Positions 7,841 to 27,213 of a DNA stretch of 27,625 nucleotides are shown here, one piece after another. Each line of letters begins with the position of its first letter. Position 1 is the first letter of the stretch. The DNA lies in the IMG/VR virus record IMGVR_UViG_2623620506_000008, positions 1 through 27,625 of that record, one strand, 5' to 3'. A program made the position numbers and the translations under genes. Origin of the DNA: a virus. Taxonomy: Duplodnaviria > Heunggongvirae > Uroviricota > Caudoviricetes. Below the pieces are notes generated by a model, which ran no database searches, was not told the DNA's origin, and was given only the letters and a program-made list of their open reading frames with translations.

Positions 7841-8117
7841 CCGCAACAGCCACTTTGATATCTGCCTGGGCTCTCTGGGATTCCAGTGCGATCTTGTTCT
7901 TTGCATCCTGGTTGGCCTCTGAAATTGCGTTGATGATGTTCACGGCCTGAATGACGTTGGCGGTGATCGCCCCAGCGGCGTTAGCGCTCTGCTCAGCAGC
8001 ATCAGCGCGTTTCTTTTCCGCCTGGTACTTATCGTGGTAGTGACCAGCAGACCAGATGATTGCGCCGATAGCAGCCAGCAGGAACGCGGCGATAACAGCC
8101 TTATAGCGCAGGCTCAT
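7725..8117 (-). CDS. Rz: i-spanin (Rz-like)
   Basis: N-terminal transmembrane segment, then a charged coiled-coil-like region; ATG overlaps the endolysin stop (ATGA). Confidence 0.65.
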   Translation of the reverse strand: MSLRYKAVIAAFLLAAIGAIIWSAGHYHDKYQAEKKRADAAEQSANAAGAITANVIQAVNIINAISEANQDAKNKIALESQRAQADIKVAVADDDCARRPVPPAAADRLREYADSLRAGAGGAAAGEPDS

Positions 8118-8590
8118 GATTTGGGCTCCGCAATGAAACCACCAGCTTCTTCGAACTTCTTAAGGAGGTTCTCGATTTTGTGTTCGTGCTGACCATAGCC
8201 GGCGCCGGGGAGTGATGCCCAGATGTTGCTGCAGCGGTCAATGGCCTGCCGGATGTTGCCGTCGTCGATGAGCTGCAGTGCGCGACGCTCTTTAATCTGC
8301 TGTAGAGCCACCGCATCCTGGCTGGCCGGCGAGAAATCTTTCAGGCCCAGCTGTTTGCGGTAAGCATCCCAGTAGCGGGACAGCAGCTGATAGCGGCCGG
8401 CGGCCGTTGACTTCAGTTTCGGGTTAAGCGTGATCAGTTTGCGGGGGTGATCGTCGTAGCTGGTAAACAGCGAGCCGCCTACAATCACGTCATAGCCGCG
8501 GTTGCGGGTTGGCTGCCCGGGCTTATCAGTGCCTTCTGACCACGCCAGCATGTCCAGGAATGCGGTGCGCTGAGGATTAGTGCTTTGCAT
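8114..8590 (-). CDS. R: Endolysin, lambda R-like lytic transglycosylase
   Basis: Strong similarity to recalled lambda R (AFLDMLAWSEGTD, GYDVIVGG, HPRKL, NPKLKSTAAGRYQLL, QAIDRCSNIWASLPGAGYGQ). Confidence 0.9.
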   Translation of the reverse strand: MQSTNPQRTAFLDMLAWSEGTDKPGQPTRNRGYDVIVGGSLFTSYDDHPRKLITLNPKLKSTAAGRYQLLSRYWDAYRKQLGLKDFSPASQDAVALQQIKERRALQLIDDGNIRQAIDRCSNIWASLPGAGYGQHEHKIENLLKKFEEAGGFIAEPKS

Positions 8591-12429: not shown

Positions 12430-12723
12430 TCAATTACTGGCTGATAACTCTCTGACGATCTCCACCAGAGTTTCGCGTGATATGACGCGTTCGTCCGTCT
12501 GAAGGCGCTTATAGCCAATTTCTGCGCCAGCAACATTCACCAGCACACGATCTCCTGGCCGGAGTTTAAACGAACACGCGGTAGCGCCATCAGAACGCCT
12601 CACGATATCGAAATACTCACCTCCATCAGAACACACCTCAGCCACATCAACCCCCTTCTTTGCTATCAACAAATTTATCTCTGCCGGCGGGAAAAGCTCC
12701 CCTTCATGAAACCAAGATAACAA
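12430..12723 (-). CDS. Hypothetical protein with no in-frame ATG
   Basis: ORF has no ATG; candidate starts are TTG at 12723 or GTG at 12648 (AAGGGGG RBS 5 nt upstream). Lies 78 bp downstream of the LexA box on the minus strand. Confidence 0.3.
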   Translation of the reverse strand: MLSWFHEGELFPPAEINLLIAKKGVDVAEVCSDGGEYFDIVRRSDGATACSFKLRPGDRVLVNVAGAEIGYKRLQTDERVISRETLVEIVRELSASN

Positions 12724-12800
12724 ATGGCTCTAATTTCCTAATAGGTTGGCCGACAAAGAATTCAAAAATTTTACTGCAGCTCTTAAACCATATCTCAAAA

Positions 12801-12820
12801 TACTGTATAAATAAACAGTG
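12801..12820. promoter_or_regulatory. LexA (SOS) box
   Basis: TACTGTATAAATAAACAGTG matches the E. coli LexA consensus TACTGTATATATATACAGTA at 17 of 20 positions with intact CTGT-N8-ACAG; overlaps a plus-strand TTAAAC-18 bp-TATAAA promoter-like pair. Confidence 0.6.
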
Positions 12821-13140
12821 TTTATCCGTTCGGCTTAAGTATGCACGTGAAAGGCATCTTTGCGCAAGGTCATTTATCTAATTGATTTGGATAATTTTTA
12901 TCGCTACTTACGTGTAAAAAATGATCGTTATTTTTAACACTCAGCGCAGAAAAGTATGCTGGTATAGATATCTTATTCCAATACTCTAGCTTACCACTCA
13001 GGGAGTAGGTCCCTACGCCAAGGGTATATAGAAGCACGGACGCATTCTGTCAGGTTGGTAATTTGTTACTGCAGAGTGTATGTTTCATAATCGTTTTAAT
13101 AGATTAATATCATTTCATCGATCCGTTAAGGCGATCAAGT

Positions 13141-14184
13141 ATGCACGGCTGGCCTTCATACGACCAATGCTTAGAAAAGCATTCTGAAGAAACCATAAGT
13201 GACTTGCACTTTGTTACCACACCACTTCGGAAATTTGAGCTGACCAGTGGCTGCGCAAACGGGGTAGCACATTGCCTATTTAATTCTATAGAAGTAAAGT
13301 ACCCAACATTATTCAGCTATTTGTTAAGGGAATTTATGAAAAGAGGAATGATAATCACGAGTAAAGTTGAGATAGATCAGGAAAATAACTCCGTTAAATT
13401 TAGACCAGAATTTAGCCAAAAGGCTCTGCGATATGGAGTGCTTTATCTTGATGAAATTTGTGTCGCGCAGACCTCTCTGTTTCAAATTGGATTGCCGGTT
13501 GATTGGCAACAACTAAAGAAGGAGAAAATAGTTAATGAGATCATTGGTAAGCCATCGCTCAGCGGAACGGTCGATTTTGCAAAAGCAGCTTTAGATGCAT
13601 ATTCCCAGTCGTTTTCTGAGTTAAACAAACGCCGAAATGAAACTTGGTGTCTCAATAAAGAATTCAAATTCCTCAATGAGCGCATTCCATTTATTGATTG
13701 TCATGGGGAAACTCTAACATTTTTGAATGCGCTTCCTGTGCCTACCGAAGACTTTCCTATAGGTGATCTTTATGAATTCCGCATAAAAAGAGATGATGAG
13801 CGCAAAGAGTTGATGAATTCAATTGATCGACTTAGGCTCAACGTTCTGAAAAGTGAAGATAAACACAATGCACTTAAAGTAGGCTTACTTGATGTTGAGA
13901 GTAATCTCATAACAATGAATCGCCTAATCAAAGAAACGAAGAGAGGTTTCTACCTTACTGATTTTTCATTGGATTACTCATCTAAAGATATGCTCGAAGT
14001 TTTCAAAGGAACATATGAAGCAACCACCACCTCAGGATTCGACAAACTTTCAGCATTAATCTTAGGTATGGGGGCATCACTAGCTTCAGGATTCAATTTT
14101 AAGGGGGGATACAGATATAAGCAGGCAAAACCAAACTCCCCTTATTTTTACGCAGCAGAGATAGTACATAAGTTTGATGTTTAA
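13141..14184 (+). CDS. Orphan low-GC protein, function unknown (moron)
   Basis: 347-aa ORF on the opposite strand to the surrounding early operon; GC about 32-43% against 55-60% flanks; alternative start ATG at 13336 with AAGGGA RBS; strong hairpin just after the stop. Confidence 0.6.
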   Translation: MHGWPSYDQCLEKHSEETISDLHFVTTPLRKFELTSGCANGVAHCLFNSIEVKYPTLFSYLLREFMKRGMIITSKVEIDQENNSVKFRPEFSQKALRYGVLYLDEICVAQTSLFQIGLPVDWQQLKKEKIVNEIIGKPSLSGTVDFAKAALDAYSQSFSELNKRRNETWCLNKEFKFLNERIPFIDCHGETLTFLNALPVPTEDFPIGDLYEFRIKRDDERKELMNSIDRLRLNVLKSEDKHNALKVGLLDVESNLITMNRLIKETKRGFYLTDFSLDYSSKDMLEVFKGTYEATTTSGFDKLSALILGMGASLASGFNFKGGYRYKQAKPNSPYFYAAEIVHKFDV

Positions 14185-14195
14185 TTCTTCAAAGT

Positions 14196-14228
14196 GAGGA
14201 TTCAAATTTTAAGCGCATTTGAATCCTC
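14196..14228 (+). terminator. Perfect 12-bp stem-loop after the orphan gene (terminator or insulator candidate)
   Basis: GAGGATTCAAAT-TTTAAGCGC-ATTTGAATCCTC, 12 nt after the stop; weak U-tract. Confidence 0.4.
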
Positions 14229-14458
14229 GTCTTACTAAGTATATATCGTTTATGCCTAGAGTTTAATTACTGGAGTAAGATTTTCACTGACTTAAAATAT
14301 TGAACATGAGACGTTTAGGTATTTTCGGAGTTTGCGAGCCGACTAAGTAAACACAGCGTCCTTGACGCCCTACACTGACAACCTAACCTAGTCAGCATCT
14401 TTTTACGCTGATTCACTAATTATGTATGCCTGCGCGTTTAAATGCTCATTGGTGAATG

Positions 14459-18037: not shown

Positions 18038-18595
18038 TCATAGCGCACCACCCAGCATCGTTGTAACCATCGCCATAATGGGCGCCACAGAATCAGGTCC
18101 GTCCAGGTAGAGCTTGGCTACGATGCTCTCGCTGATTTCCTTAAGGCGCTCGTGTCTGGGGGCTTTGAGAACGACAGCCTGAATGGCTTCTGCATCCTCT
18201 TTCAACGACCTGGCTACACGGACCGCGAAGCAATCGTTCTTAACCACGCGATCCCGGTACGCCAGCGGCAGAACCGAAATTATTACCGGCGCCATCTGCT
18301 CGACGTTTGCCCGGTAGGCCGGTGATTTCTCGTGGTTGTCCAGCCAGCGAAAAAGCTTCACGTTCCACACGTCGGGGCTTCCGCTTGTGTCGATGCCATC
18401 GAGCCCGGATTCCTCAACTGCCATCTTAATGGCCAGCGCGACAGCCACGCGGCCCTCTGCCGCCGCCCAGGCGCGAACAGCAGAACAGAGGGCGCGGTGA
18501 TCGACCGGCTGACCTTCGGCTTCGCCATGTTGATACTGGAATTTCAGGCGCTCTGACGGCGCTCTGTTATTCTGTTGAAAAGAAAGTGTTTGCAT
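18038..18595 (-). CDS. YdaT/CII-like early regulator (tentative)
   Basis: 185-aa ORF directly downstream of the Cro-like gene, ATG with AGGAG RBS; assigned by position. Confidence 0.4.
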   Translation of the reverse strand: MQTLSFQQNNRAPSERLKFQYQHGEAEGQPVDHRALCSAVRAWAAAEGRVAVALAIKMAVEESGLDGIDTSGSPDVWNVKLFRWLDNHEKSPAYRANVEQMAPVIISVLPLAYRDRVVKNDCFAVRVARSLKEDAEAIQAVVLKAPRHERLKEISESIVAKLYLDGPDSVAPIMAMVTTMLGGAL

Positions 18596-18606: not shown

Positions 18607-18828
18607 CTACTTTGGTAATCCGTCAGTGGGGTTAGGGTAAGCTTCAGGATCAATCTCGTGTGGTGTCACTTGCCATTCCAGGAACTGACAAAGGGGAATG
18701 ATTCTTTTTTGTGGCACTCCGCTCGCATAGATCCACTTGCCGACAGCCTGACTGCTAATACCGAAGTGCTTCCCGATACGAGTGCGCGTTGCAGCTTTGC
18801 TTATTTTTTCTTGGGTTTGTTTGTTCAT
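18607..18828 (-). CDS. cro: Cro-like HTH regulator
   Basis: 73-aa product with HTH (TRIGKHFGISSQAVGKWI), AAGGAG RBS, divergent from the repressor gene; the track ORF extends to 19134. Confidence 0.65.
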   Translation of the reverse strand: MNKQTQEKISKAATRTRIGKHFGISSQAVGKWIYASGVPQKRIIPLCQFLEWQVTPHEIDPEAYPNPTDGLPK

Positions 18829-18842
18829 GTGCTCTCCTTCAT

Positions 18843-18925
18843 TGATGAAACAAAGCATACATGACGAAAGTTTATGTTTCAACACAACGAAAGATAATGT
18901 TTTAATGCTGAGTGAAACCTTAGGT
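18843..18925. promoter_or_regulatory. OR-like operator/promoter region between cro and repressor
   Basis: 17-mer ACGAAAGTTTATGTTTC (18864-18880) nearly identical to a 17-mer after the repressor gene; extra GAAAC half-sites; palindrome AACCTTAGGTT (18915-18925). Confidence 0.5.
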
Positions 18926-18933
18926 TGTAAAAT

Positions 18934-19353
18934 GTGCGTATGAATGAAATTACTTTCCCGACCTTCGCTAGAAGAATTCAACAAGTAATGGCTGAAAACG
19001 GCTGGTCGAAATCTGACCTCGCCAAAAAGGTCATGCTTTCGCATACGGCCGTTCAAAATTGGGCTAAGGGTAGAAATGTAGCCAGTGGAGAGCGGTTGAA
19101 GAGGCTTGCTGCTGTAACAGGAAAGCCTGAGCATTGGTTCTTTATGGAGGAAGGTCAGGAAGATGCGGCGACAAACACCTTGGGTCAGTCGGCTGTAGAA
19201 CTTGATGAGAAAGAACAGGCCCTACTTTCCCTCTTTAACCAGCTCCCTGAAGCTGAAAAGTTAAGACTCATCCTTCACACTAAAGCTGTCCTTCATGAGA
19301 TTGAGCTTCTAAAAAACGACGTATACGACATTATCAACAGCTCTAAAACATAG
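18934..19353 (+). CDS. cI: Prophage repressor, RacR/CI-like HTH, no peptidase S24 domain
   Basis: N-terminal HTH (WSKSDLAKKVMLSHTAVQNWAKGR), 139 aa, no Ser/Lys autocleavage domain; divergent from cro; first ATG at 18940. Confidence 0.7.
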   Translation: MRMNEITFPTFARRIQQVMAENGWSKSDLAKKVMLSHTAVQNWAKGRNVASGERLKRLAAVTGKPEHWFFMEEGQEDAATNTLGQSAVELDEKEQALLSLFNQLPEAEKLRLILHTKAVLHEIELLKNDVYDIINSSKT

Positions 19354-19377
19354 CTTAGGATTGCAACCTAATAATTC

Positions 19378-19402
19378 AGCGCCTACCAGGGCGCTTTTTT
19401 TT
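19378..19402 (+). terminator. Rho-independent terminator after the repressor gene
   Basis: AGCGCC-TACCAG-GGCGCT followed by TTTTTTTT. Confidence 0.6.
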
Positions 19403-19404
19403 GC

Positions 19405-19470
19405 CCTCTCATGAAACTTTTACTTTTGCGCCCTTTACATACGAAACTTTATGTTGCAGTATTATCTGCA
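19405..19470 (+). promoter_or_regulatory. OL/pL-like operator-promoter for the plus-strand early operon
   Basis: 17-mer ACGAAACTTTATGTTGC (19441-19457) matches the OR 17-mer at 15 of 17; partial copy ATGAAACTTTTAC at 19411-19423; TTTACA and TATTAT hexamers nearby. Confidence 0.45.
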
Positions 19471-19549
19471 TCGACAACACGCGCACCGTTGTCAGGTTAA
19501 AGAAACGTTCCGCCAGCCTGGCGACAAGGGCAAATGAGAGGGAATCATC

Positions 19550-19756
19550 ATGGTTCATCAGCACTATGGCACCCAGACGGTCAACCGCGGCGCAGTTCTG
19601 CCCGGCATGCTCGTTAAGCACAAAGACAGCACCTGGACGGCATCCGCCAACAAGCGCGGCAAGCTATATCTGCATCGCGGCATTGAGCGTACTTACACCA
19701 CCGAGCTGCTGGTCGAAGTTTTTCTTAATGGTGTAGGGAATGGCCTGAGCCATTAA
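19550..19756 (+). CDS. Hypothetical small protein, first gene of the early-left operon
   Basis: 68-aa ORF with GAGGG RBS; no Arg-rich N-like motif. Confidence 0.45.
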   Translation: MVHQHYGTQTVNRGAVLPGMLVKHKDSTWTASANKRGKLYLHRGIERTYTTELLVEVFLNGVGNGLSH

Positions 19757-24484: not shown

Positions 24485-25318
24485 ATGTTAAGAGAAAAAC
24501 CTGTTAAGCACCCGGCGATCCGTTACCACGGCGGTAAATTCCGCTTGGCATCCTGGATTATCCCTCAGATGCCTGAGCACGTCTGCTACGTGGAACCGTT
24601 CGGCGGCGCAGCTGGCGTATTGCTGCAAAAGCCTCGCAGCTATGCGGAAGTTTATAACGACTTGGATGGTGAGGTGGTGAACCTGTTCCGGGTGCTGCGT
24701 GACGCAGAGATGAACCAGCGCCTGCAACATGCGTGCATGCTCACGCCTTATTCTCGTGATGAATTTTGCGCAGCGCATGAAGTCACCGAAGAACCGATTG
24801 AGCGAGCAAGACGCATGGTTGTCCGCGCCAGCATGGGCTTTGGTTCAGCAGCAGGAATTGGCGGTAATTCCGGCTTCCGTAGCGACAGCAAAAGGAAATA
24901 TGCGACAGCTGCGCATCTGTGGGAGCGTTATCCGGAAAATCTGGCAGCAGTATGTCAGCGCCTTCAGGGGGTCATTATCGAAAACAAAGATGCCCTGTCA
25001 GTAATGCGAGCCCATGACGCTGAAACAACCCTGCACTACATCGACCCGCCTTATGTACCCGAAACCCGCGTGCATGGTAACCGTTATTACAGCCACGAAA
25101 TGACTTTAGAGGGGCATGAGCAATTGCTCGCAGTAGCCAGAACGATGACCGGAATGGTGATGATCAGCGGCTACGACTCGGATGTGTACAACGACATGCT
25201 GGTCGGATGGAAGAAAACGAAAAAATCTTCACGCATTAGCGCCGGTAGGGGTACGAAGGTCCGCACTGAATGTATGTGGCTTAACCCAGCATCACAACAG
25301 GCGGAGCGTGCAGCATGA
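24485..25318 (+). CDS. DNA N6-adenine methyltransferase, Dam-like (orphan)
   Basis: YHGGK near the N-terminus, EPFGGAAGV, catalytic DPPY (HYIDPPYVPE); no restriction endonuclease gene adjacent. Confidence 0.85.
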   Translation: MLREKPVKHPAIRYHGGKFRLASWIIPQMPEHVCYVEPFGGAAGVLLQKPRSYAEVYNDLDGEVVNLFRVLRDAEMNQRLQHACMLTPYSRDEFCAAHEVTEEPIERARRMVVRASMGFGSAAGIGGNSGFRSDSKRKYATAAHLWERYPENLAAVCQRLQGVIIENKDALSVMRAHDAETTLHYIDPPYVPETRVHGNRYYSHEMTLEGHEQLLAVARTMTGMVMISGYDSDVYNDMLVGWKKTKKSSRISAGRGTKVRTECMWLNPASQQAERAA

Positions 25319-25567: not shown

Positions 25568-25891
25568 ATGACAAATTTCCGACAGCTTTATAATGAGTTG
25601 TCGGAAGCCGGAGGTAATATGGCCAAGCTTCTTAACCTGCAGGAATGGGCTAAAGAAACCTATTCAACACCGCCCTCTCTTTCTACCCTTCGCCGCTGGG
25701 CCAGGGAGGGGCGCATCTTTCCTGCACCAGCGCTTCATGGCAAAGAATATAAGGTTCAACCGGATGCTATCTATGTGGATCCGAGCAAAAAGAACCTGCG
25801 ACCGAAACCTAAACACATGACGCTGCCCGCCGGCGGCACCCTACTGGAGAGACTGACTCATGGCGAAAAGGCCAGTACGTTACGACGCTAA
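25568..25891 (+). CDS. xis: Excisionase, lambda Xis-like
   Basis: LNLQEWAKETYSTPPSLSTLRRWAREGRIFPAPALHGKEYKV resembles recalled lambda Xis; preferred start ATG at 25619 with GGAGG RBS; overlaps the int start. Confidence 0.75.
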   Translation: MTNFRQLYNELSEAGGNMAKLLNLQEWAKETYSTPPSLSTLRRWAREGRIFPAPALHGKEYKVQPDAIYVDPSKKNLRPKPKHMTLPAGGTLLERLTHGEKASTLRR

Positions 25892-26945
25892 TCTGCCCCG
25901 TAACCTGACCTATCGTAAAAGAGACAGGCTTTATAGCTGGCGCAACCCGACAACCGGCCAGGAAATATCTCTTGGCCGGATCGACAGGAAGGATGCCATC
26001 TCTCAGGCCATAGAGGCCAACAACTACATCGAACAGAATTACCTGCCCTCAGCTCTGCTTGACCGCATAAAGGAGACCCCTACCTTTACGGTTAAGAGCT
26101 GGCTTGAACGGTACGAGGTGATCCTTGAGCGAAGAGAGTTGAAGCCAAACACCATGAAGGTCAGGCGAAATCAGATCGCAACCATTAAGGATGAATTCGG
26201 CAAGATGCCGTTATCCTCAGTTAGCACGAAGGACATATCAAACTTTCTTGAGTCCTATATTTTATGCGACAAGAAAAGCATGGCCGCCGGCCTACGGTCC
26301 GTGCTGCTGGACATTTTCAGGGAGGCTATTGTCGAAGGGCATATAGAAAGGAACCCAGCGGATCCTACGCGAACGCCGACACCAAAGGTAAAACGGGAGC
26401 GTTTGCTGCTCGAGCATTTTATAGTTATCCGCGCGGCAGCTGCTTCCCACTCGGAGTGGTTGCCGAACGCCTGCAATCTTGCTCTGGTTACAGGACAGCG
26501 CCGCGAGGACATTTCGCTTTTTCGGTTCAGTGACGTTAAGGATGGTAGGCTATTTGTTACGCAGGAGAAGACGGGACACAAACTGGCGCTGCCGCTTGAT
26601 TTGAAATTGGAGGCCGTGGATCTTGTGCTTGAAGAGGTAATCGAACGCTGCAGAGTAAATAATCCCTCAGACTTTATGCTTTTCTCCCCAGTCAGGCGTG
26701 GGGGCAGAAAGCCGGGCCCCTTAACTCCAGATGGTTTAACCCAGGCTTTTGCGGATGTGCGAGATGCAACGGCGTTAAAATTTGGCCCGAACCCACCGCC
26801 CTACCATGAGATCAGAAGCCTGGCCAGCAGACTATATGAAAAGGAACGTGGAGAGGAATTCACGCAACGTTTGCTCGGCCACAAAAATTTAACAATGACA
26901 AAAAAATACCTGGACGCACGCGGTGCAGAGTATGTTATGGTTTAG
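25860..26945 (+). CDS. int: Tyrosine integrase, lambda Int-like
   Basis: Extensive similarity to recalled lambda Int (LALVTGQRREDI, HEIRSLASRLYEKE, LLGHK, Tyr near the C-terminus). Confidence 0.9.
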   Translation: MAKRPVRYDANLPRNLTYRKRDRLYSWRNPTTGQEISLGRIDRKDAISQAIEANNYIEQNYLPSALLDRIKETPTFTVKSWLERYEVILERRELKPNTMKVRRNQIATIKDEFGKMPLSSVSTKDISNFLESYILCDKKSMAAGLRSVLLDIFREAIVEGHIERNPADPTRTPTPKVKRERLLLEHFIVIRAAAASHSEWLPNACNLALVTGQRREDISLFRFSDVKDGRLFVTQEKTGHKLALPLDLKLEAVDLVLEEVIERCRVNNPSDFMLFSPVRRGGRKPGPLTPDGLTQAFADVRDATALKFGPNPPPYHEIRSLASRLYEKERGEEFTQRLLGHKNLTMTKKYLDARGAEYVMV

Positions 26946-27213
26946 ACAGGATATGGATTATTCGAGTAAGTTTCGGGGGATTTCGTGAGAACACCGAAAA
27001 AACCCTTAAGAAACAAATAGATAAAAAGAGACCGAATACGATTCCTGTATTCGGTCCAGGGAAATGGCTCTTGGGAGAGAGCCGTGCGCTAAAAGTTGGC
27101 ATTAATGCAGGCTTAGTTGCCTTGCCCTTTAAGAATAGATGACGACGCCAGGTTTTCCAGTTTGCGTGCAAAATGGTCAATAAAAAGCGCGGTGGTCATC
27201 AGCTTAAATGTTA

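What the first reader, a model, noticed from the sequence alone, without database searches (positions are those of the whole stretch)
18829..19470. Immunity region: S24-less repressor with a shared 17-mer operator on both sides
The cro-repressor intergenic region contains ACGAAAGTTTATGTTTC and the region after the repressor terminator contains ACGAAACTTTATGTTGC (15 of 17 identical). Both have approximate dyad symmetry (GAAAC ... GTTTC) and extra GAAAC half-sites nearby. This looks like OR and OL bound by the same repressor. The repressor lacks the RecA-stimulated autocleavage domain, so induction is probably indirect.
Basis: partly seen in the sequence, partly recalled or inferred. Interest (0 to 1): 0.55.

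Follow-up and report, generated by a model that had tools for sequence, protein, structure and literature searches.

The report
Gifsy-type prophage immunity switch
This is the on/off switch of a lambda-like prophage: a short repressor that cannot cut itself binds five matching DNA sites around its own gene and is probably switched off by a small DNA-damage-induced protein, a design already known from Salmonella Gifsy phages, so it is well formed but ordinary.

Summary
The two 17-mers are at 18864-18880 and 19441-19457 and are 15/17 identical. A third copy lies at 18887-18903, giving 3 matches where 0.05 are expected by chance.

OR1, OR2 and OR3 lie between the cro-like gene and the repressor gene. 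OL2 and OL1 lie after the repressor's terminator. They overlap the inferred promoters PR, PRM and PL, much as in phage lambda.

In 91 related immunity regions the same five positions are kept, and the half-site sequence changes together with the repressor's recognition helix.

The repressor is 137 aa with only an HTH_3 domain, no peptidase S24 domain and no Ala-Gly bond. It is 65% identical to the Salmonella LT2 Gifsy repressor (GtgR/GftR per Lemire 2011), which is not cleaved but is inactivated by a LexA-controlled antirepressor. The window has a near-consensus LexA box (12801-12820) directly upstream of a 71-aa GftA-family gene (12645..12430, minus strand).

The system is a new member, with its own immunity specificity, of a known kind. 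Interest is low.

The parts
18607..18828 (-). Cro-like gene (YdaS family, 73 aa), first gene of the rightward (PR) operon
   Evidence: ORF. Pfam YdaS_toxin at E 5.9e-07, 29.7 bits, just under the 30-bit cut-off. phrog_35 at E 3.5e-17. Its sequence co-varies with the repressor class across loci.
18854..18882 (-). PR promoter: -35 TTGAAA (18882-18877), 17-bp spacer, -10 TATGCT (18859-18854)
   Evidence: It is the only sigma-70-like site found in 18700-19600, which is no more than the 0.9 expected by chance. The support is therefore its position and the conserved AGCATA (-10) in relatives. OR1 covers its spacer and five bases of its -35.
18865..18881 (.). OR1, CGAAAG-TTTAT-GTTTCA, the best site
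   Evidence: 23.4 bits with a matrix trained on other loci. It sits at -75/-74 from the repressor ATG in nearly all class-A loci; L058/L060 are offset.
18888..18904 (.). OR2, CGAAAG-ATAAT-GTTTTA, centre 23 bp from OR1, abutting the weak -35 region of PRM
   Evidence: 21.95 bits. It sits at -52 in nearly all class-A loci. Its role as an activating site is inferred by analogy with lambda CI and PaaR2.
18913..18929 (.). OR3, TGAAAC-CTTAG-GTTGTA, centre 25 bp from OR2, overlapping the PRM -10
   Evidence: 18.3 bits and at -27 in nearly all class-A loci. Its left half changes with immunity class, while its right half GGTTGTA is constant because it overlaps TTGTAAAAT.
18928..18933 (+). PRM -10 hexamer TAAAAT, six bases before the repressor ATG; the repressor mRNA is probably leaderless
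   Evidence: TTGTAAAAT plus six variable bases plus ATG is kept in most relatives, and there is no Shine-Dalgarno sequence. The lambda cI and paaR2 mRNAs are leaderless (PMC8630535). This part is inferred, not shown.
18940..19353 (+). Repressor gene: 137 aa, HTH_3 at residues 13-67, helical C-terminal part with the motif LLSLFNQLPEAEK, no S24 domain and no Ala-Gly bond
   Evidence: Pfam. 65% identity to the LT2 Gifsy repressor, 75% to an E. coli prophage repressor, 32% to DicA. NCBIfam DicA model scores 53.8 bits against a cut-off of 101.
19378..19403 (+). Intrinsic terminator of the repressor transcript
   Evidence: Stem of 7 pairs, 5 of them G-C, followed by a T run. A hairpin plus T run is present at the same place in relatives.
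19412..19428 (.). OL2, TGAAAC-TTTTA-CTTTTG, 5 bp upstream of the PL -35
   Evidence: 20.6 bits. A site is kept at +59 to +77 after the repressor stop codon in all class-A loci.
19434..19462 (+). PL promoter (inferred): -35 TTTACA (19434-19439), 17-bp spacer, -10 CAGTAT (19457-19462)
   Evidence: Read by eye. TTTACA or TTGACC, a 17-bp spacer and a weak -10 sit at the same place in most relatives and at Qin dicBp. The site falls below the threshold of the promoter scan.
19442..19458 (.). OL1, CGAAAC-TTTAT-GTTGCA, inside the PL spacer and overlapping its -10
   Evidence: 21.96 bits. It is kept at +89 to +107 in all class-A loci.
19469..19497 (+). Invariant inverted repeat CATC-GACAAC-N9-GTTGTC-AGGT at the start of the inferred PL transcript; function unknown
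   Evidence: The arms are identical in 35 non-redundant loci of all immunity classes. Qin has AACAC/GTGTT arms at the same place. There is no Rfam match.
19550..19756 (+). First PL gene, Kil-like (68 aa)
   Evidence: phrog_294 at E 6.1e-35. DNA match to the mEp237 kil gene.
18038..18595 (-). YdaT / CII-like regulator gene following cro
   Evidence: Pfam YdaT_toxin at E 1.5e-16. phrog_163, CII-like, at E 1.7e-38.
12801..12820 (-). LexA box, minus strand CACTGTTTATTTATACAGTA (core CTGT-N8-ACAG at 12803-12818)
   Evidence: It is the only CTGT-N8-ACAG in the window, which is not significant on its own (0.43 expected). A LexA box lies roughly 80-370 bp upstream of the GftA-family ORF in 41 of the 45 loci with such an ORF, as described for Gifsy phages.
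12430..12645 (-). Candidate antirepressor gene: 71 aa, GTG start after the ribosome-binding sequence AAGGGGG
   Evidence: phrog_4847 at E 1.7e-10, the same PHROG as Gifsy-2 STM1020.1n (E 1.3e-45). 31% identity over 52 aa to that protein. It shares the GUG-Ala-Glu start. STM1020.1n is equated with GftA by its position between dinI and the next gene and by its GUG start.

Best explanation
The region is the immunity switch of an apparently complete lambdoid prophage of the Gifsy/DicA type.

In the lysogen, dimers of the 137-aa helix-turn-helix repressor bind five 17-bp dyad operators of form yGAAAs-N5-sTTkyr.
- OR1 lies over the spacer and -35 of PR and shuts off cro, the CII-like gene and the replication genes.
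- OR2, 23 bp away, abuts the weak -35 of the repressor's own promoter PRM and probably activates it.
- OR3 overlaps the PRM -10 and probably limits repressor synthesis at high concentration.
- OL1, inside PL, and OL2, just upstream of it, shut off the kil-recE-recT-xis-int operon.

The repressor has no self-cleavage domain. After DNA damage, LexA cleavage would free a promoter 6 kb away, beyond the replication genes. That promoter drives a 71-aa GftA-family antirepressor, which would bind the repressor and take it off the DNA. Cro would then keep PRM off.

Shown here: the sites, their positions, their co-variation with the repressor's recognition helix, the homologies, and the absence of an S24 domain. 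Inferred: binding itself, activation at OR2, the leaderless mRNA, the PL and PRM hexamers, and the antirepressor's action.
For: Sites. Three 17-mer copies occur against 0.05 expected. A matrix trained only on three other loci ranks five window sites as the top five, all within 18865-19458. All class-A regions keep five sites, most at the same offsets. Only 5 hits above 14 bits occur outside immunity regions in 405 kb of class-A loci.

Specificity. Half-sites switch with the recognition helix. HTAVQNWAKG goes with CGAAAG..GTTTCA, HTAVQNWSKG with CGAAAC..GTTGyA, HTSVRKWA[SN]G (the Gifsy type) with TnGAAC..GTTCCA, and the L011 type with ACAAG..CTTGT. The flanking promoter elements stay constant.

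The sites sit differently relative to PR and PL, in both offset and orientation, so they are not copies of a promoter.

Repressor. Only HTH domains are found. It is 65% identical to the LT2 Gifsy repressor. Published work shows that repressor binds the Gifsy-2 right-operator fragment, is not cleaved, and is released from DNA by GftA, whose gene is under LexA control (PMC3121763).

Antirepressor. The window has a LexA box followed by a phrog_4847 ORF with the same GUG start as the Gifsy-2 gene. The same pairing is seen in 41 of the 45 loci with such an ORF.

Analogous systems with experimental OR/OL maps exist: PaaR2/YdaS, which has a leaderless repressor mRNA and PRM activation (PMC8630535), and DicA/Rem (PMC10448788).
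Against: No binding, transcription or induction data exist for this element.

The training sites for the matrix are orthologous to the window's sites, so shared descent contributes to that score.

The PL -10 (CAGTAT) is weak and was assigned by position only. PRM has no recognisable -35.

The antirepressor candidate is only 31% identical to the Gifsy-2 protein, over its C-terminal 52 residues. Lemire et al. found that antirepressor-repressor pairing is specific and sometimes crosses between prophages, so this protein may not be the cognate inducer.

A single CTGT-N8-ACAG in 27.6 kb is not significant by itself (0.43 expected).

About half of the related loci gave no antirepressor hit within the 8 kb examined.
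Confidence: 0.8

Rival explanations
1. The repeated 17-mers are mainly operators for the Cro-like (YdaS-family) protein, or for the YdaT/CII-like protein, rather than for the repressor.
For: Cro sequences also co-vary with the site class. In CP-933P the YdaS and PaaR2 footprints overlap.
Against: In lambda and CP-933P both proteins use the same operators, so this reading adds to the main one rather than replacing it. Sites at PL, with no cro gene nearby, fit a lysogenic repressor. The published YdaT site, TTGATT-N6-AATCAA (abstract of PMC9986795), is unlike these sites. The Gifsy-2 relatives have the same site layout, and their right-operator fragment is bound by the repressor.
Confidence: 0.07
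2. The similarity between the two sides reflects duplicated promoter sequence (PR and PL) or plain shared ancestry, not protein binding sites.
For: Both main copies lie inside promoters.
Against: The sites lie at different offsets and in opposite orientation relative to the -35 and -10 hexamers of PR and PL. Two further copies (OR2, OL2) lie outside the core promoters. Across immunity classes the promoter hexamers stay the same while the half-sites change in concert at all five positions.
Confidence: 0.03
3. The operators are as described, but induction does not run through the LexA-controlled ORF at 12430-12645. The repressor could be inactivated by an antirepressor from another prophage, by a stress-driven bistable flip, or by proteolysis.
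For: [quoted passage not shown] Qin dicBp is induced spontaneously and by urea or heat independently of Rem and RecA. The candidate here is only 31% identical to the Gifsy-2 protein.
Against: The LexA box plus GftA-family ORF sits at the expected place, downstream of the replication genes. That pairing is found in 41 of the 45 loci with such an ORF, including immunity classes A and A'.
Confidence: 0.12

Closest known systems
Salmonella Gifsy-2 (and LT2 Gifsy-1) immunity system: repressor GtgR/GftR with LexA-controlled antirepressor GftA (Lemire, Figueroa-Bossi & Bossi 2011, PMC3121763)
   Same: The repressor is 65% identical over 136 aa and of the same length. Gene order is the same: RecE operon, repressor, cro, cII analogue, O. 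The layout of three OR sites plus two OL sites is the same. A LexA box and a small GUG-start antirepressor gene lie downstream of the replication genes.
   Different: The recognition helix differs (HTAVQNWAKG versus HTSVRKWASG), and so do the half-sites (yGAAAs versus TnGAAC), so the phages are presumably heteroimmune. The cII analogue here is YdaT-type. There is no dinI homologue between the LexA box and the antirepressor gene. The antirepressor is only 31% identical, over 52 aa.
E. coli Qin prophage DicA / DicC / Rem (PMC10448788)
   Same: DicA is a short HTH repressor without an Ala-Gly bond and is 32% identical over 100 aa, including the LLxLFNxLPExE motif. It has a divergent cro-like gene (dicC). 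Paired dyad sites lie at the downstream promoter dicBp, followed by a homologous leader. It is relieved by a small antirepressor.
   Different: The match is below the NCBIfam DicA cut-off, 53.8 against 101 bits. The operators are different (GTTAG..CTAAC type). The inducing signal for Rem is unknown. Qin is defective, whereas this prophage looks complete.
CP-933P PaaR2 / YdaS / YdaT switch of E. coli O157:H7 (PMC8630535)
   Same: It has a CI-like repressor with a leaderless mRNA, a YdaS Cro analogue and a YdaT CII analogue. Operators are repeated in OR and again at a PL-like promoter. PRM is activated at low repressor levels.
   Different: Homology between PaaR2 and this repressor was not tested. 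The published half-site is GTTTAGTAA. PaaR2 is co-transcribed with a toxin-antitoxin pair. No antirepressor is described in the passages read.
Phage lambda CI / Cro with OR1-3 and OL1-3
   Same: The operators are 17-bp dyad sites. OR is tripartite with 23-25 bp between centres. OR1 lies over PR, OR2 next to the PRM -35 and OR3 over PRM. A second operator set lies at PL beyond the repressor's terminator. The repressor mRNA is probably leaderless. These lambda features are established knowledge and are restated.
   Different: There is no S24 self-cleavage domain. OL has two sites rather than three. Induction is by an antirepressor rather than by RecA-stimulated cleavage. Cooperativity and OL-OR looping are unknown.
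E. coli Rac prophage RacR / YdaS / YdaT
   Same: Cro and CII partners belong to the YdaS and YdaT families. The layout is the same, with repeated sites on both sides of the repressor gene.
   Different: The repressor shows no detectable similarity to RacR. Rac sites are TTAGGC..GCCTAA.

Membership tests
Gifsy/DicA-type non-cleavable prophage repressors (GtgR, GfoR, DicA) | N-terminal Cro/CI-type HTH domain | tested here: met
   Pfam HTH_3 at E 2.6e-10, residues 13-67.
Gifsy/DicA-type non-cleavable prophage repressors (GtgR, GfoR, DicA) | Short protein (about 135-150 aa) with no S24 domain and no Ala-Gly cleavage bond | tested here: met
   137 aa. No Peptidase_S24 hit at E <= 1. There is no AG dipeptide in the translated sequence.
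Gifsy/DicA-type non-cleavable prophage repressors (GtgR, GfoR, DicA) | Full-length sequence homology to a characterised member | tested here: met
   65% identity over 136 aa, E 2e-66, to the LT2 Gifsy-1/2 repressor. 32% over 100 aa to DicA.
Gifsy/DicA-type non-cleavable prophage repressors (GtgR, GfoR, DicA) | Not cleaved on induction; dissociated from its operator by a small antirepressor | not testable with these tools
   Only the genetic components are seen: a LexA box plus a GftA-family ORF.
Gifsy-type antirepressors (GftA/GfoA; phrog_4847) | Small protein of about 70 aa homologous to GftA, with a non-canonical GUG start | tested here: met
   phrog_4847 at E 1.7e-10. BLASTP E 1e-10, 31% over 52 aa. 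GTG GCT GAG follows AAGGGGG, matching GTG GCA GAG after GGGGGG in Gifsy-2. STM1020.1n is equated with GftA by position and start codon only.
Gifsy-type antirepressors (GftA/GfoA; phrog_4847) | LexA box at the promoter, located outside the immunity region downstream of the replication genes | tested here: met
   The box at 12801-12820 lies about 155 bp upstream of the GTG and 6.2 kb from the repressor gene. The same arrangement is seen in 41 of the 45 loci with such an ORF.
Lambda CI / LexA-type self-cleaving repressors | C-terminal peptidase S24 domain with a Ser-Lys dyad and an Ala-Gly (or Cys-Gly) cleavage site | tested here: not met
   No S24 hit. Only about 70 residues follow the HTH, and a low-confidence model predicts them to be helical.
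DicA proper (NCBIfam NF007257) | Score at or above the curated cut-off | tested here: not met
   53.8 bits against a cut-off of 101. It is a relative, not DicA itself.
Lambda-like bipartite operator architecture (OR + OL) | Several similar dyad sites overlapping divergent PR/PRM promoters, and further sites at PL | tested here: met
   Five sites. Their positions relative to promoters are given. They are conserved and class-specific.
Lambda-like bipartite operator architecture (OR + OL) | Occupancy by repressor and Cro in opposite order; cooperative binding | not testable with these tools
   This needs footprinting or titration experiments.

The most novel reading that the evidence does not exclude
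The invariant inverted repeat CATC-GACAAC-N9-GTTGTC-AGGT at the very start of the PL transcript (19469-19497) is unchanged in every immunity class examined, and its arms are changed on both sides in Qin. It could be an undescribed cis-regulatory element of Gifsy/DicA-type prophages, shared across heteroimmune phages and acting on the kil/recET operon independently of the repressor. It might be a 5' RNA hairpin for antitermination, processing or stability, or a DNA site for a host protein. A second possibility: because the right half of OR3 is fixed by the PRM -10 in all classes, OR3 is built to be weak whatever the immunity specificity.
Probability: 0.2. Interest if true: 0.45.

Novelty: new member of a known kind. 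Interest (0 to 1): 0.2.

Why it matters
This is a clean example of a well-understood design, a lambda-like switch in which self-cleavage is replaced by a LexA-controlled antirepressor. It confirms that the Gifsy design extends to Enterobacter-like hosts. The comparison across 91 loci gives predicted operator sequences and recognition-helix/half-site pairs for several immunity classes. These could be used to predict superinfection immunity and cross-induction between co-resident prophages. It does not open a new question.

Tried and rejected
- Single-sequence AlphaFold2 of the repressor gave a poor model (mean pLDDT 51.6). It showed only that the protein is predicted to be all-helical, and no fold search was run on it.
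- A sequence search of the PDB found no relative.
- Rfam found nothing in the immunity region apart from a chance-level suhB match. At gathering threshold it found only SraC/SdsR at the end of the window.
- tblastn of the antirepressor ORF against GenBank phages gave one weak hit. The PHROG comparison was what linked it to Gifsy-2.
- Folding the PL leader alone gave z = -0.45. RNAalifold found only invariant pairs, so there is no covariation evidence within the family.
- The DicA-related viral loci were 93-100% identical to DicA and added little diversity.
- RacR shows no similarity to this repressor.
- A sixth possible site at 19362-19378 (12.2 bits) is present only in the window and was rejected as chance.
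- The GAAAC at 18846-18850 is not conserved.
- The degenerate pattern YGAAASNNNNNSTTKYR matches only the five sites at 0 mismatches. It was derived from those sites, so this is not an independent test.
- The genome-collection scan did not find the source genome. The best match was 92% identity, in Enterobacter soli.
- The large protein-homologue searches were not run, because the S24 question was already settled.

Full report
**Observation**

A search allowing three mismatches finds a third copy at 18887-18903, 23 bp after the first. That is three matches against 0.05 expected, and none of 100 shuffles reached three. The repeat finder reports the same three-member family.

The dyad symmetry is best described one base to the right, as CGAAAG-TTTAT-GTTTCA at 18865-18881. 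The half-sites have the form yGAAAs.

**Gene layout**

- A 73-aa YdaS/Cro-like gene lies at 18607..18828 on the minus strand.
- Further along that strand are a YdaT/CII-like gene (18038..18595), lambda O-like and P-like replication genes, and nin genes.
- The repressor gene is 18940..19353 on the plus strand, followed by an intrinsic terminator at 19378-19395.
- Then come kil-like, YdaE-like, RecE-like, RecT, Dam-like methylase, xis and int genes.
- The rest of the window carries Q, lysis, terminase, portal, protease and major head genes, so the prophage looks complete on this arm.

**The sites**

Reading the region in the new register gives five sites:

| Site | Coordinates | Sequence |
|---|---|---|
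| OR1 | 18865-18881 | CGAAAG-TTTAT-GTTTCA |
| OR2 | 18888-18904 | CGAAAG-ATAAT-GTTTTA |
| OR3 | 18913-18929 | TGAAAC-CTTAG-GTTGTA |
| OL2 | 19412-19428 | TGAAAC-TTTTA-CTTTTG |
| OL1 | 19442-19458 | CGAAAC-TTTAT-GTTGCA |

I built a symmetric weight matrix from the corresponding sites of three other loci only (L002, L004, L005). Scanned over the whole window, it ranks these five sites first, at 18.3-23.4 bits. The next hit is 12.2 bits and everything else is 8.7 or less. The training sites are orthologous to the window's, so part of this score reflects common descent.

The stronger evidence is comparative.

**Comparison with related loci**

I collected 91 related immunity regions: 10 from reference genomes (best match 92% identity, Enterobacter soli), 80 from IMG/VR, plus Gifsy-1 and an E. 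coli prophage.

All 22 distinct regions that share the window's recognition helix (HTAVQNWAKG) keep five sites. Most sit at about -75, -52 and -27 from the repressor ATG, and the two OL sites lie about 30 bp apart at +59 to +107 after the stop codon. In 405 kb of those loci, only five hits above 14 bits lie outside the immunity region.

Across classes the half-sites change together with the helix:

| Recognition helix | Half-sites |
|---|---|
| HTAVQNWAKG | CGAAAG..GTTTCA |
| HTAVQNWSKG | CGAAAC..GTTGyA |
| HTSVRKWA[SN]G (Gifsy type) | TnGAAC..GTTCCA |
| VTPQA.QKWAKG | TGAAAC..GTTTCA |
| L011 type | ACAAG..CTTGT |

The change is seen at all five positions. Meanwhile the flanking TTGTAAAAT, TTTACA and CATCGACAAC stay constant. 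The Cro-like proteins co-vary in the same way, as expected for an immunity module inherited as a unit.

**Promoters**

- **PR:** the scan finds one sigma-70-like site, on the minus strand: -35 TTGAAA (18882-18877), a 17-bp spacer, -10 TATGCT (18859-18854). OR1 covers its spacer and most of its -35.
- **PRM:** a conserved TAAAAT (18928-18933) lies six variable bases before the ATG. There is no Shine-Dalgarno sequence, and this spacing is kept in most relatives. That argues for a leaderless repressor mRNA, as in lambda cI and paaR2. OR3 overlaps this -10, and OR2 ends where a weak -35 would begin.
- **PL:** I assigned it by its conserved position: TTTACA (19434-19439), a 17-bp spacer, CAGTAT (19457-19462). 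OL1 lies in the spacer and OL2 is 5 bp upstream. The same arrangement is seen at Qin dicBp.

The sites sit at different offsets and in opposite orientation relative to the hexamers of PR and PL. They are therefore not simply duplicated promoters.

**The repressor and its induction**

hmmscan at E <= 1 reports only helix-turn-helix families (HTH_3 at residues 13-67) and no Peptidase_S24. The protein is 137 aa and has no Ala-Gly bond.

- It is 65% identical over its full length to the repressor of LT2 Gifsy-1/2.
- It is 75% identical to an E. coli prophage repressor.
- It is 32% identical to DicA, and below the NCBIfam DicA cut-off.
- It shows no similarity to RacR.

Lemire et al. 2011 (PMC3121763) showed that Gifsy repressors are not cleaved on induction. 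They showed that GtgR binds the Gifsy-2 right-operator fragment and is released from it by the small antirepressor GftA. The gftA gene starts with GUG and lies behind a LexA box downstream of the replication genes.

In the window, the only CTGT-N8-ACAG (12803-12818, within TACTGTATAAATAAACAGTG) lies just upstream, on the minus strand, of an ORF that hits phrog_4847. The Gifsy-2 gene lying between dinI and the next gene belongs to the same PHROG. The two proteins align at 31% identity over 52 aa. Both start with GTG-Ala-Glu after a G-rich ribosome-binding site, which gives a 71-aa product from 12645..12430.

A GftA-family ORF was found in 45 of the loci examined, and 41 of those have a LexA box roughly 80-370 bp upstream. 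The function itself is untested.

**Mechanism proposed**

- Repressor dimers at OR1 and OR2 block PR and, by analogy with lambda and PaaR2, stimulate PRM.
- OR3 limits PRM at high repressor levels.
- OL1 and OL2 block PL.
- DNA damage removes LexA from the antirepressor promoter.
- The antirepressor then strips the repressor from the DNA, and Cro locks the lytic state.

The sites, their geometry, their co-variation and the homologies are shown here. Binding, activation, the transcription start sites and antirepressor action are inferred.

**Comparison with known systems and novelty**

The element meets the testable criteria for the Gifsy/DicA class of non-cleavable repressors and fails the criterion for CI/LexA-type self-cleaving repressors. 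It works like lambda's OR/OL switch but has two sites at OL and a different induction route.

It is a new member, with its own immunity specificity, of a known kind. A specialist would not be surprised by it.

**What led nowhere**

- The single-sequence structure model was poor.
- The PDB sequence search found nothing.
- Rfam found nothing in the region.
- Folding of the PL leader gave no signal.
- The DicA-related loci were too similar to one another to be informative.

**Side observations**

- An invariant inverted repeat lies at the start of the PL transcript (19469-19497). Its arms are changed on both sides in Qin. It is unexplained.
- The right half of OR3 is the same in all immunity classes because it overlaps the PRM -10.
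- A low-GC insert carrying a DUF6236 gene sits next to the LexA box.
- The SraC/SdsR small-RNA pair lies just beyond int.

Noticed in passing
window 19469-19497 (and the stretch to 19548): An invariant inverted repeat, CATC-GACAAC-N9-GTTGTC-AGGT, lies at about +1 to +29 of the inferred PL transcript. Its arms are identical in 35 non-redundant loci of every immunity class. The Qin dicB leader has AACAC/GTGTT arms at the same place, a change on both sides. It is not in Rfam and its function is unknown. A second, variable hairpin-like stretch, GTTCCGC..GGCG..AAGG, precedes the first PL gene and is also seen in Rac.
   Followed up: partly
window 12801-12820 and 12430-12645 (minus strand): A near-consensus LexA box lies directly upstream of a 71-aa GUG-start ORF of the Gifsy GftA antirepressor family (phrog_4847). 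It is 6.2 kb from the repressor gene. Unlike in Gifsy-2, there is no dinI homologue between the box and the ORF.
   Followed up: yes
window 18928-18942: The repressor mRNA is probably leaderless. The -10 TAAAAT is followed by six non-conserved bases and then the ATG, with no ribosome-binding site. This spacing is kept in most relatives.
   Followed up: partly
window 18913-18929 and the equivalent position in L001-L095: The right half of OR3 (GGTTGTA) is the same in all immunity classes because it overlaps the PRM -10 (TTGTAAAAT). Only the left half is class-specific, so OR3 is built as a half-consensus site in every class.
   Followed up: partly
window 12700-14450: A low-GC insert (35-40% GC against about 55-58% in the flanks) carries a 347-aa plus-strand ORF at 13141..14184. 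The ORF hits Pfam DUF6236 and phrog_23128 and has no PADLOC hit. It looks like a moron lying between the replication-side early genes and the LexA box.
   Followed up: partly
window 27019-27163: The SraC/RyeA and SdsR/RyeB small-RNA pair (Rfam 178 and 116 bits) lies just beyond the integrase gene (25860..26945) and xis (25568..25891). The prophage end therefore abuts this sRNA locus.
   Followed up: no
window 24485-25318: A D12-class (Dam-like) adenine methyltransferase gene lies in the PL operon between recT and xis. Its best PADLOC matches are Type II methyltransferase models, with weaker matches to orphan-methyltransferase models.
   Followed up: no
L034-L063 (IMG/VR loci) compared with the window: A second, common immunity class differs from the window's by a single residue in the recognition helix (A to S: HTAVQNWSKG). 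Its half-sites are very similar (CGAAAC..GTTGyA). Cross-immunity between the two classes is possible but untested.
   Followed up: no
L008 (Leclercia adecarboxylata NCTC13032) 8001-8403: The repressor homologue in this genome reads as a 61-aa truncated ORF, with the rest of the protein encoded in another frame. This may be a frameshifted repressor, although its operators look intact.
   Followed up: no
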